Below, in pieces: positions 48,029 to 48,075 of a stretch of DNA of 64,000 nt; the first letter of the stretch is position 1, and every line of letters starts with the position of its first letter. The position numbers and the translations under genes are program-made. The notes under the pieces were generated by a model, which was given only the letters and a program-made list of their open reading frames with translations, searched no databases and was not told where the DNA came from. Origin of the DNA: a virus. The stretch covers positions 62,908 through 126,907 of IMG/VR virus record IMGVR_UViG_3300045988_132576; one strand, given 5' to 3'.

Positions 48029-48075
48029 CCTCCTTCCACTTGACTTCTAATATATTTTAAAAGAAGGGAAGGAGG
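48029..48075 (-). promoter_or_regulatory. RBS-sequestering hairpin (CCTCCTTCC … GGAAGGAGG)
   Basis: A 9-bp perfect inverted repeat 29 nt apart. The downstream arm is the SD of gene 47592..48020. Confidence 0.4.

What the first reader, a model, noticed from the sequence alone, without database searches (positions are those of the whole stretch)
48029..48075. SD/anti-SD hairpin sequestering the ribosome-binding site of the membrane-protein gene
In the 78-nt gap between ruvC and gene 47592..48020, CCUCCUUCC lies 29 nt upstream of GGAAGGAGG (the SD, 8 nt before the AUG). The two are perfect complements. The upstream arm is literally the 16S anti-SD sequence. This predicts translational repression relieved by coupling, temperature or a factor.
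Basis: seen in the sequence. Interest (0 to 1): 0.5.

Follow-up and report, generated by a model that had tools for sequence, protein, structure and literature searches.

The report
Conserved hairpin hiding a phage ribosome-binding site
A stable RNA hairpin, conserved with compensating mutations across a family of stop-codon-recoded gut phages, buries the ribosome-binding site of a small membrane-protein gene; it is a real translational lock of the kind long known from phage T4, so it is solid but not a new principle.

Summary
On the minus strand, CCUCCUUCC (48075-48067) pairs with the Shine-Dalgarno (SD) sequence GGAAGGAGG (48037-48029), 8 nt before the AUG at 48020. The full hairpin is 47 nt with 19 bp (-21 kcal/mol, z = -4.9). 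The gene ranks 1 of 53 in the window for SD pairing (P = 1.00). Homologous genes in 19 IMG/VR phage clades and 3 more MAG contigs (down to 43% protein identity) all keep the SD in the 3' arm of a long hairpin, with compensatory changes in the SD core itself (central A-U in 12 clades, G-C in 7). SD sequestration is therefore supported. Of the proposed relief routes, temperature is excluded (paired to 80 C). Unfolding by a ribosome stopped at the ruvC stop codon is excluded in this window (23 nt away). A factor remains open. The window's copy also looks like a weak intrinsic terminator (UAUUUUUU follows the stem), but that trait is missing in many clades. Related phages place the same kind of hairpin before GIY-YIG homing endonuclease and RuvC genes, the gene classes T4 controls this way. 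Verdict: new member of a known kind; the relief mechanism is unresolved.

The parts
48029..48075 (-). The whole 47-nt hairpin: 19 bp (9+3+7), 6-nt loop AAUAUA (48056..48051), two small bulges on the 3' side
   Evidence: MFE and centroid. Hairpin alone is -21.0 kcal/mol. Covariance-model hit of 76.2 bits on the minus strand against 25.1 bits antisense, and the only copy in the window.
48067..48075 (-). 5' arm CCUCCUUCC, an anti-SD mimic
   Evidence: It covaries with the SD arm across clades.
48029..48037 (-). 3' arm GGAAGGAGG, the Shine-Dalgarno sequence of the downstream gene
   Evidence: P(paired) = 1.00. The SD core is paired in 18-19 of 19 clades.
48038..48066 (-). Inner part of the hairpin: CUU/AAG (3 bp), CUUUUAA/UUAGAAG (7 bp) and the loop
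   Evidence: The inner helix also covaries, for example C-G to U-A at columns 30-45.
48021..48028 (-). SD-to-AUG spacer UAUUUUUU. It doubles as a terminator-like U tract directly after the stem
   Evidence: It has the most U of the 53 spacers in the window (7 of 8). Terminator score d = -10.9, which is borderline. The U tract is absent in many related clades.
48076..48088 (-). A-rich tract UUAAAUAAAUAAU upstream of the stem. It can pair weakly with the U tract and carries TAA in all three frames
   Evidence: The sequence immediately 5' of the arm ends in AAU in nearly all clades.
47592..48020 (-). The regulated gene: 142 aa, N-terminal hydrophobic helix plus helical domain, 3 in-frame TAG (first at codon 7), function unknown
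   Evidence: Gene map. Matches phrog_4105/4257, both of unknown function. 2507 unnamed homologs. AF2 model is helical, pLDDT 63. It is not the phage holin, which is 43238..43645.
48099..48611 (-). Upstream gene, a RuvC-like Holliday junction resolvase with 3 in-frame TAG. Its TAA stop (48101..48099) lies 23 nt before the 5' arm
   Evidence: phrog_159/827 at E about 1e-13 and Pfam RuvC at 20.9 bits, just under the cut-off. Synteny RuvC-hairpin-gene is conserved in all loci inspected.
50239..50267 (-). Consensus sigma-70-type promoter TTGACA-17-(TG)TATAAT. It probably drives the six-gene transcript that ends with the regulated gene
   Evidence: 12 of 12 consensus matches and sequence. No promoter-like site lies between it and the hairpin. 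Its function is inferred, not shown.
47541..47587 (.). Bidirectional intrinsic terminator where the minus-strand operon and the plus-strand structural module converge, just after the regulated gene
   Evidence: 20-bp stem with flanking U runs on both strands. d = +45 and +37.

Best explanation
The element is a cis-acting translational lock. On the polycistronic minus-strand mRNA, the SD of the last gene (GGAAGGAGG) is the 3' arm of a 19-bp hairpin of about -21 kcal/mol, and the 5' arm is its complement. That mRNA probably starts at the consensus promoter at 50267-50239 and runs through dUTPase and ruvC. The 5' arm is transcribed first, so the helix closes as soon as the SD emerges. The 30S subunit then cannot reach the SD, and initiation on the membrane-protein gene is strongly repressed. 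The folding, the conservation and the covariation are shown; the repression itself is inferred from established knowledge of SD sequestration.

The device is used across this phage lineage for genes that appear to need low or late expression. It precedes this membrane protein in every clade, GIY-YIG homing endonucleases in several relatives, and RuvC in two clades (including the window). In this operon the two hairpin-locked genes are also the only two that use TAG for glutamine, at the same rate as the structural module. That marks them as late-type genes sitting at the tail of an earlier transcript (inferred).

In the window's own clade the stem is followed directly by UAUUUUUU. The same hairpin therefore probably also acts as a leaky intrinsic terminator after ruvC, which would lower transcription into the gene (inferred, clade-specific).

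How the lock is opened is not resolved. Heat and the footprint of a ribosome stopped at the ruvC stop codon are excluded here. What remains is a transcript or processing product that lacks the 5' arm (the T4 solution), a trans-acting factor or helicase, or simply a permanently low leak.
For: Structure:
- MFE -27.8 kcal/mol, z = -4.86, 0 of 200 shuffles as good.
- The hairpin persists in a 201-nt context.
- P(SD paired) = 1.00, rank 1 of 53 genes.

Conservation:
- All 19 distinct IMG/VR clades (95-43% protein identity) have the SD in the 3' arm of a 45-69 nt hairpin, with P(SD paired) 0.82-1.00.
- So do the four MAG contigs, one of which belongs to the window's own clade.

Covariation:
- 87% of cells are paired against 69% or less when partners are slid. 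Ten pairs change on both sides. 0 of 500 shuffles reach the observed covariation score.
- In an SD-register table anchored independently of the 5' arm, the GGAGG core is paired in 18-19 of 19 clades. The central position is A-U in 12 clades and G-C in 7.

Strand:
- The sense strand is more stable than the antisense in 17 of 19 clades, with G-U pairs.
- The covariance model scores 76.2 bits sense against 25.1 antisense.

Specificity:
- Among 124 genes in 18 related loci the median P(SD paired) is 0.63. The top ranks are this gene family, GIY-YIG endonuclease genes and RuvC of L072/L083.
- Neighbouring RuvC and dUTPase starts are not consistently sequestered.

Late-type signature:
- The TAG fraction of Gln codons is 0 in the four upstream genes of the operon, 0.38 in ruvC, 0.33 in the target, and 0.35 in the structural module.

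Precedent:
- T4 e, soc, 49 and I-TevI, and Aeh1 mobE, use stable hairpins over a consensus SD about 8 nt from the AUG on polycistronic transcripts. For gene e the reduction is 100-fold (PMC3014915; PMC2988022).
Against: - No expression data exist. Repression is inferred from thermodynamics and analogy.
- A hairpin this stable would nearly silence a gene whose protein is clearly under purifying selection, so some way of opening it must exist, and none was identified.
- No sigma-70-type promoter lies in or next to the hairpin, and -10-like hexamers in the loops are, by my estimate, no more frequent than chance.
- Coupling geometry fails in the window.
- In the window's clade the U run after the stem and the A tract before it fit an intrinsic terminator equally well, so part of the selection on the stem could be for termination.
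Confidence: 0.75

Rival explanations
1. The hairpin is primarily a Rho-independent terminator, or attenuator, that ends the ruvC transcript and gives it a protective 3' hairpin. The SD lies in the stem only because the terminator abuts the next gene.
For: - The stem is followed at once by UAUUUUUU, the most U-rich of 53 spacers, and preceded by an A tract.
- Its size and shape match the many canonical terminators of this genome.
- The terminator score is positive in the L017, L030 and L042 clades (+8 to +13). In the window it is -10.9, within the range of the other hairpin-plus-U elements (-31 to +45).
Against: - The U tract is absent in L070, L072, L083, L097, L120, L125, L129, L135 and L136, while the SD-containing hairpin is kept. 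L036 scores d = -81.
- In all other terminators of the window the next SD lies outside the stem; the stem ends 22-50 nt before the next start codon.
- Here the SD core itself is paired in 18-19 of 19 clades, with compensatory changes.
- A terminator with no promoter after it would leave a conserved gene untranscribed.
Confidence: 0.12
2. T4-type temporal switch. Long early or middle transcripts carry the closed hairpin and are silent. A late transcript, or a processed RNA, that begins inside or after the 5' arm has a free, very strong SD and is translated late.
For: - The gene classes are the same as in T4: a GIY-YIG endonuclease, a junction resolvase, and late genes on polycistronic RNA (PMC2988022; PMC3014915).
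- The locked genes have late-type TAG usage.
- The SD is unusually long, which suits an on/off design better than permanent dampening.
- A -10-like nAnAAT abuts the 5' arm in most clades.
Against: - No sigma-70-type promoter was detected at or in the hairpin.
- The AAU next to the arm is explained by pairing with AUU in the spacer.
- -10-like hexamers in the loops are, by my estimate, at chance frequency.
- A candidate repeated motif from two structural-module gaps does not match the hairpin.
- Hairpins before the endonuclease and RuvC genes in relatives have 4-7 nt loops, with no room for an internal promoter.
Confidence: 0.15
3. Translational coupling. Ribosomes finishing ruvC open the hairpin, so the gene is translated only when TAG-rich ruvC is read to its end.
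For: - Synteny RuvC-hairpin-gene is invariant.
- In eight or so clades the RuvC stop lies only 3-8 nt from the first paired base.
- RuvC carries 3-9 TAG codons.
- The window's own ruvC hairpin has the dUTPase stop codon inside its 5' arm, a true coupling geometry.
Against: - In the window the stop is 23 nt from the arm, and P(SD paired) stays 1.000 even with the RNA through 13 nt past the stop (free from stop+14) held single-stranded.
- In the window, L072, L076, L101 and L104 clades the gap is 14-23 nt, yet the hairpin is kept (window).
- Even a 3-8 nt gap would open only the outermost A-U pairs, given what is known of the ribosome's mRNA channel (my inference).
Confidence: 0.08
4. RNase III (or another double-strand-specific nuclease) processing site. 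Cleavage would separate the ruvC and membrane-protein messages and either free or destroy the SD.
For: Most clades have 19-24 bp of nearly perfect duplex, longer than needed to hide an SD. From my own knowledge, not checked here: T7 and SP82 use intergenic RNase III hairpins.
Against: Several clades have short or interrupted stems: L070, L083 (15 bp with a 31-nt loop) and L125 (4+5 bp). No sequence feature specific to RNase III sites could be tested with these tools.
Confidence: 0.07
5. RNA thermometer: the stem melts at host temperature and frees the SD.
For: Only the general resemblance of an SD paired with a pyrimidine-rich arm.
Against: P(SD paired) is at least 0.97 up to 80 C, and the MFE is still -13 kcal/mol at 60 C. 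Known thermometers rely on short, mismatched stems (my own knowledge).
Confidence: 0.01

Closest known systems
T4-type hairpins over the translation initiation region: genes e, soc, 49 (endonuclease VII), I-TevI/II/III, segB; mobE of phage Aeh1
   Same: A consensus SD about 8 nt from the AUG is buried in a very stable hairpin on a long polycistronic transcript. The targets are late genes. The gene classes match: GIY-YIG homing endonucleases and a junction resolvase carry such hairpins in relatives of this phage (PMC3014915; PMC2988022).
   Different: No late promoter could be located in the DNA that encodes the 5' arm, and that promoter is what gives the T4 system its switch. The phage lineage is unrelated: about 30% GC, TAG-recoded, strongly SD-using, with contigs binned with Bacillota MAGs. 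The locked gene here is a membrane protein of unknown function. In this clade the hairpin also carries a terminator-like U tract.
Rho-independent (intrinsic) terminators, including bidirectional ones
   Same: A G+C-rich stem base, an A tract before and a U run after the stem. The stem length resembles that of the other terminators of this genome.
   Different: The 3' arm is the SD of the next gene and the U run is the SD-AUG spacer. The terminator score is borderline (-10.9). The U tract is not conserved across clades, while the SD pairing is. The antisense strand folds less well (-18.1 against -21.0 kcal/mol in the window, and weaker in 17 of 19 clades).
Translational coupling hairpins (MS2 coat/replicase and lysis genes; operon junctions where the upstream stop lies in the stem)
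   Same: The SD of a downstream cistron is masked by pairing with upstream RNA. The window's ruvC hairpin (48610-48650) has exactly this geometry, with the dUTPase stop codon in its 5' arm.
   Different: For the hairpin under study the upstream stop is 23 nt from the stem, and modelling a parked ribosome leaves the SD fully paired.
RNA thermometers (ROSE, fourU) and riboswitch expression platforms that sequester the SD
   Same: The SD is paired with a pyrimidine-rich anti-SD segment in the 5' leader.
   Different: The stem is far too stable to melt. There is no aptamer-like domain and no Rfam match. There is no alternative anti-sequestering structure.

Membership tests
SD-sequestering translational repressor hairpin (generic class) | The SD (and/or start codon) is base-paired in the dominant fold of the native leader | tested here: met
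   P(SD paired) = 1.00. The fold is the same in 88-nt and 201-nt contexts.
SD-sequestering translational repressor hairpin (generic class) | The pairing is maintained by selection (conservation with compensatory change) | tested here: met
   19 of 19 clades plus the MAG contigs. Ten pairs change on both sides. The SD-core central position is A-U in 12 clades and G-C in 7.
SD-sequestering translational repressor hairpin (generic class) | Disrupting the 5' arm raises translation and a compensatory change restores repression | not testable with these tools
   Needs reporter fusions or toeprinting.
T4-type dual-transcript temporal control (e, soc, 49, I-TevI, mobE) | The hairpin forms only on long read-through transcripts of an upstream unit | tested here: inconclusive
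   A consensus promoter at 50267-50239 and no promoter-like site closer make a read-through transcript likely. No transcript data are available.
T4-type dual-transcript temporal control (e, soc, 49, I-TevI, mobE) | A late promoter placed so that late RNA lacks the 5' arm | tested here: inconclusive
   No sigma-70-type site was found and the candidate repeated motif does not match. The late-promoter consensus of this phage is unknown, so absence cannot be shown.
T4-type dual-transcript temporal control (e, soc, 49, I-TevI, mobE) | The target is a late gene | tested here: inconclusive
   TAG usage of 0.33 equals that of the structural module (0.35), against 0 in the four upstream genes. This is suggestive only.
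Intrinsic (Rho-independent) terminator | A stable G+C-rich stem-loop | tested here: met
   -21.0 kcal/mol, with a 9-bp base holding 6 G-C pairs.
Intrinsic (Rho-independent) terminator | A U-rich tract immediately 3' of the stem | tested here: met
   UAUUUUUU in the window. It is absent in 7 of 19 IMG/VR clades and in 2 of the 4 MAG contigs.
Intrinsic (Rho-independent) terminator | A positive combined hairpin and U-tail score (d'Aubenton-Carafa type) | tested here: not met
   d = -10.9 in the window, +8 to +13 in three clades and -81 in L036. The score was re-implemented with modern energy parameters, so the zero threshold is approximate.
Translational coupling by ribosome unfolding | The upstream stop codon lies within or adjacent to the 5' arm, so that a terminating ribosome melts the SD helix | tested here: not met
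   23-nt gap. P(SD paired) = 1.000 with the RNA through 13 nt past the stop (free from stop+14) held open.
RNA thermometer | The SD helix melts within the physiological temperature range | tested here: not met
   P(SD paired) is at least 0.97 up to 80 C.
Any curated Rfam family | A covariance-model match at or near the gathering score | tested here: not met
   Only spurious miRNA-type hairpin hits at about 25 bits against gathering scores of 80 or more.
RNase III processing site | About two turns of near-perfect duplex, cleaved by RNase III | not testable with these tools
   Duplex length (19 bp in the window, up to 24 bp in relatives) is compatible, but several clades have short or interrupted stems. 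Cleavage cannot be computed.

The most novel reading that the evidence does not exclude
In this lineage of TAG-recoded, SD-dependent gut phages, SD-sequestering hairpins may be a second, initiation-level lock placed specifically on late-coded (TAG-using) genes that ride at the tail of earlier operons. The locked genes are a junction resolvase, homing endonucleases and this membrane protein. The lock would be opened by a late-specific event not yet described for such phages. One candidate is a phage factor. Another is a combined terminator and sequestrator that responds to whether ribosomes can read through the TAG-rich ruvC. Code switching and mRNA structure would then act together to time expression.
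Probability: 0.1. Interest if true: 0.65.

Novelty: new member of a known kind. Interest (0 to 1): 0.35.

Why it matters
- **Regulatory prediction.** It gives a concrete, testable regulatory element in a large, uncultured family of stop-codon-recoded gut phages, where almost nothing is known about gene regulation.
- **Convergence with T4.** An unrelated lineage appears to have arrived at the same logic as T4: hide the ribosome-binding site of nucleases and other risky late genes that sit on longer transcripts.
- **A second layer of control.** In this operon the hairpin-locked genes coincide with the TAG-using genes. That suggests recoding is not the only layer that delays their expression.
- **Annotation.** The hairpin marks the true start of a widespread unnamed gene family (more than 2500 homologs) and flags its product as something the phage keeps under tight control.
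- **Limits.** It does not reveal a new principle.

Tried and rejected
1. **Chance.** Rejected by shuffles, the exact-match expectation and conservation.
2. **Thermometer.** Rejected.
3. **Footprint coupling to ruvC in the window.** Rejected.
4. **DNA-level or plus-strand element, or a bidirectional terminator for the convergent structural operon.** The antisense fold is weaker in 17 of 19 clades and the model scores 25 bits against 76. The plus-strand terminator score is -34.
5. **Internal sigma-70 promoter.** None found. By my estimate, -10-like hexamers in the loops are expected by chance in about half of such A+T-rich loops.
6. **Shared phage-specific promoter motif.** A 20-nt motif occurs at 9400-9419 and 17831-17850 but does not match the hairpin within 3 mismatches. 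Its 13-nt core is at chance frequency.
7. **The downstream gene as the holin.** Rejected: the holin is 43238..43645.
8. **Function of the protein.** Pfam gives only sub-threshold hits. PHROGs matches families of unknown function. PDB gives nothing. 2507 homologs are unnamed. The single-sequence AF2 model has pLDDT 63, too poor for a fold search.
9. **Covariation on unsuitable alignments.** RNAalifold on a plain MAFFT alignment of all 19 clades recovered only 4 pairs because the divergent arms are out of register. The model-derived alignment A3 mixes strands and unrelated hairpins and was not used for counts.
10. **Programmed readthrough or frameshift stimulator after the ruvC stop.** Considered and dropped from direct reading of the sequences. 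The stop-to-stem spacing varies from 3 to 23 nt, and the downstream gene is not in a consistent frame with ruvC.
11. **Close relatives among cultured phages.** No close relative turned up in the annotated phage collection for the 2-kb region tested.

Full report
**What the window is.** The window is part of a phage genome of about 30% G+C in which TAG is a sense codon. Treating TAG as sense raises the summed length of ORFs of at least 100 codons from 41.8 to 70.3 kb (both strands summed) and produces proteins of up to 2761 aa. A plus-strand structural module (1..47557) and a minus-strand replication and nucleotide-metabolism module (47592..64000) converge on a strong bidirectional terminator at 47541-47587. 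The finding lies between the last two minus-strand genes. These are a RuvC-like resolvase (48611..48099; PHROGs E about 1e-13, Pfam RuvC just under its cut-off) and a 142-aa protein (48020..47592). That protein has an N-terminal hydrophobic helix and a helical domain.

**The observation.**
- CCUCCUUCC lies at 48075-48067 and GGAAGGAGG at 48037-48029.
- 29 nt separate the arms.
- The spacer UAUUUUUU is 8 nt, and the AUG is at 48020.
- The gap after the ruvC TAA is 78 nt.

Three more pairs (CUU/AAG) and seven more (CUUUUAA/UUAGAAG) close a 6-nt loop, giving 19 bp in 47 nt at -21.0 kcal/mol. The 88-nt intergenic RNA folds with z = -4.86 (0 of 200 shuffles as good). The hairpin is unchanged in a 201-nt context. 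The exact 9-mer is expected 0.11 times in the whole window.

**Is this gene unusual in its own genome?** Among the 53 gene starts of the window it has the highest probability of a paired SD (1.00). A covariance model of the element finds only this one copy in the window.

**Is the pairing selected?** Two scans of IMG/VR returned 132 loci, many duplicated between the two scans, which fall into 19 distinct clades. A scan of GTDB genomes added four MAG contigs. Protein identity to the window ranges from 95% down to 43%.
- Synteny (dUTPase, sometimes an inserted gene, RuvC, hairpin, this gene, convergent terminator) and TAG recoding are conserved.
- In every clade the SD is the 3' arm of a 45-69 nt hairpin, with P(SD paired) of 0.82-1.00.
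- The arm sequences differ between clades: CCUCCUU/AAGGAGG, CCCC/GGGG, CCCUC/GGGGG and UUCUUUC/GGGAGGA.
- On a MAFFT alignment of 17 versions, 87% of cells are paired, against 69% or less when partners are slid. Ten pairs change on both sides, and no shuffle of 500 reaches the observed covariation.
- I also anchored each 3' arm by its register against a 16S-complementary template, which does not use the 5' arm. The GGAGG core is then paired in 18-19 of 19 clades. Its central position is A-U in 12 clades and G-C in 7.
- The structure belongs to the RNA of the gene's own strand. G-U pairs make the sense strand more stable in 17 of 19 clades, and the model scores 76 bits sense against 25 antisense in the window.
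- Control genes (RuvC and dUTPase starts in the same loci) are not consistently sequestered.

The pairing is therefore a selected feature of this gene's leader.

**A pattern across the lineage.** The covariance model also hit other hairpins in related loci. A survey of 124 genes in 18 representative loci gives a median P(SD paired) of 0.63. The strongly sequestered starts belong almost only to three families:
- this membrane protein, in all clades;
- GIY-YIG homing endonuclease genes (L017, L101, L108; Pfam PF01541);
- RuvC (L072 and L083).

In the window itself, ruvC has an unrelated 13-bp perfect hairpin: AAGUAAUUACCUC at 48650-48638 pairs with GAGGUAAUUACUU at 48622-48610. It covers the SD and the first two bases of the UUG start, and the dUTPase stop codon lies inside its 5' arm.

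These are the gene classes that T4 and its relatives regulate in the same way. In T4 genes e, soc, 49 (the junction resolvase) and I-TevI, and in Aeh1 mobE, a very stable hairpin covers a consensus SD about 8 nt from the AUG on polycistronic early or middle RNA (100-fold repression for gene e). Late promoters in the region encoding the 5' strand give translatable RNA (PMC3014915; PMC2988022).

**Timing clue.** A 12-of-12 consensus promoter at 50267-50239 probably heads a six-gene transcript. Its first four genes contain no TAG. RuvC and the target use TAG for 38% and 33% of Gln codons, the same as the structural module (35%). TAG also occurs in some replication genes further upstream, so this is a hint, not proof, that the two hairpin-locked genes are meant to be translated late. 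That would fit the proposal that recoding delays late genes (Borges et al. preprint).

**The terminator question.** The window has many canonical hairpin-plus-U terminators inside its operons. In all of them the next SD lies outside the stem, which ends 22-50 nt before the next start codon. The hairpin studied here has a similar size and an A tract before it. It is followed by the most U-rich spacer of all 53 genes. Its terminator score is -10.9, against -31 to +45 for the others, and is positive in three related clades. It may therefore terminate some transcription in this clade. However, the U tract is missing in seven of the 19 IMG/VR clades and in two MAG contigs, while the SD pairing is never lost. 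Termination is at most a secondary, clade-specific function.

**How is the lock opened?**
- Heat is excluded: the SD stays paired to 80 C.
- A ribosome stopped at the ruvC stop cannot open it in the window. The gap is 23 nt, and P(SD paired) = 1.000 with the RNA through 13 nt past the stop (free from stop+14) held open.
- In some clades the gap is only 3-8 nt, but that would melt only the outer A-U pairs.
- No sigma-70-type promoter lies in or beside the hairpin.
- A motif repeated in two structural-module gaps does not match the hairpin.
- RNase III cleavage and a trans-acting factor cannot be assessed with these tools.
- The very long SD argues for an on/off design rather than permanent dampening, but this is inference.

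**What the protein is.** Its function remains unknown. It matches PHROGs families with no annotation. It has 2507 unnamed homologs and no relative in the PDB. The single-sequence model is low-confidence and helical. It is not the phage holin, which is 43238..43645. The MAG contigs that carry the family are binned with Mollicutes, Eubacterium, Oscillospiraceae and Bacilli. Together with the strong SD usage, this points weakly to Bacillota hosts.

**Verdict.** This is a genuine, conserved SD-sequestering hairpin. The element is a new member of a well-known class of phage translational controls. Its mildly interesting features are lineage-wide use on nucleases and on this membrane protein, coincidence with TAG-using genes, and a terminator-like tail in this clade.

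Noticed in passing
whole window, e.g. 48020..47592 (TAG at codon 7), 9500..17758 (80 TAG): TAG is read as a sense codon, probably Gln: it aligns with CAA-encoded Gln in homologs, and database entries translated with Q are 100% identical. About 35% of Gln codons in the structural module are TAG. No tRNA gene of any kind, and so no suppressor tRNA, lies in the 64 kb.
   Followed up: partly
48610..48650, minus strand: A second SD-sequestering hairpin one gene upstream. AAGUAAUUACCUC pairs with GAGGUAAUUACUU (13 bp perfect, 15-nt loop), covering the SD and the first two bases of the UUG start of ruvC. The dUTPase TAA stop lies inside the 5' arm, a classical coupling geometry. 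It exists only in the window's own clade. Once the 5' arm is removed, the SD can still pair with CCUCUUU in ruvC codons 4-5.
   Followed up: partly
L101:240-292, L108:250-297, L017:~1740-1790; L072:869-913, L083:~865-909: Related phages carry compact SD/anti-SD hairpins directly before a GIY-YIG homing endonuclease gene inserted between dUTPase and RuvC. The L101 copy has a 16-bp perfect stem plus seven U. In another clade a similar hairpin precedes RuvC. These are the gene classes regulated this way in T4.
   Followed up: partly
49672..50205, 49411..49671, 49163..49411, 48645..49163 versus 48099..48611 and 47592..48020: Within one apparent operon the first four genes use no TAG. The last two, which are the hairpin-locked ones, use TAG for 33-38% of Gln codons. 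RuvC carries 3-9 TAG codons across clades.
   Followed up: partly
about 2573-2610, 7693-7730, 9420-9465, 17763-17800, 29282-29318, 31680-31720, 39730-39775, 42112-42150, 43650-43692, 44590-44635 (plus strand); 62075-62120 (minus strand): Many canonical hairpin-plus-U terminators sit inside the structural operon, mostly with no recognisable promoter after them. Late transcription must therefore read through them, either by leak or by antitermination.
   Followed up: no
9400..9419 and 17831..17850, plus strand: A near-identical 20-nt motif (TTTTTGAAAAATAATAGAGT and TTTTTAGAAAATTATAGAGT) in two intergenic gaps of the structural module. Three matches within 3 mismatches against 0.9 expected. It could be a phage-specific promoter or operator.
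   Followed up: partly
44504..44511 and 44551..44558, plus strand (divergent 243-nt gap 44410-44652): AAGTGTCA is repeated twice, 47 nt apart, in the only long divergent intergenic region of the window, next to a minus-strand gene (43693..44409; phrog_8810, unknown function). It may be an operator.
   Followed up: no
48081..48098 (minus strand) and the equivalent region in L076, L101, L108, L070: In clades where the RuvC stop lies 14-23 nt from the hairpin, the spacer contains a relic resembling the RuvC C-terminus of other clades (GGTCTAA, GGCCTTAA). This suggests the stop moved about 18 nt upstream by duplication or a premature stop, while the hairpin stayed in place.
   Followed up: no
L108:120-194: A very stable 70-nt hairpin whose 5' arm AAAUCACCUGCCG resembles the 16S 3' end and whose 3' arm carries AGGUGAU. 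It is followed by GUUUUAUG and an ORF of only three codons. It may be a terminator or a decayed copy of the same device.
   Followed up: no
L133-L136 (GTDB MAG contigs of 148-164 kb): Phage contigs of this family are binned into MAGs labelled Mollicutes, Eubacterium, Oscillospiraceae and Bacilli. IMG/VR contigs of the window's clade cluster around 97-126 kb and 159-197 kb, so true genome size and possible concatemer assemblies are unclear.
   Followed up: no
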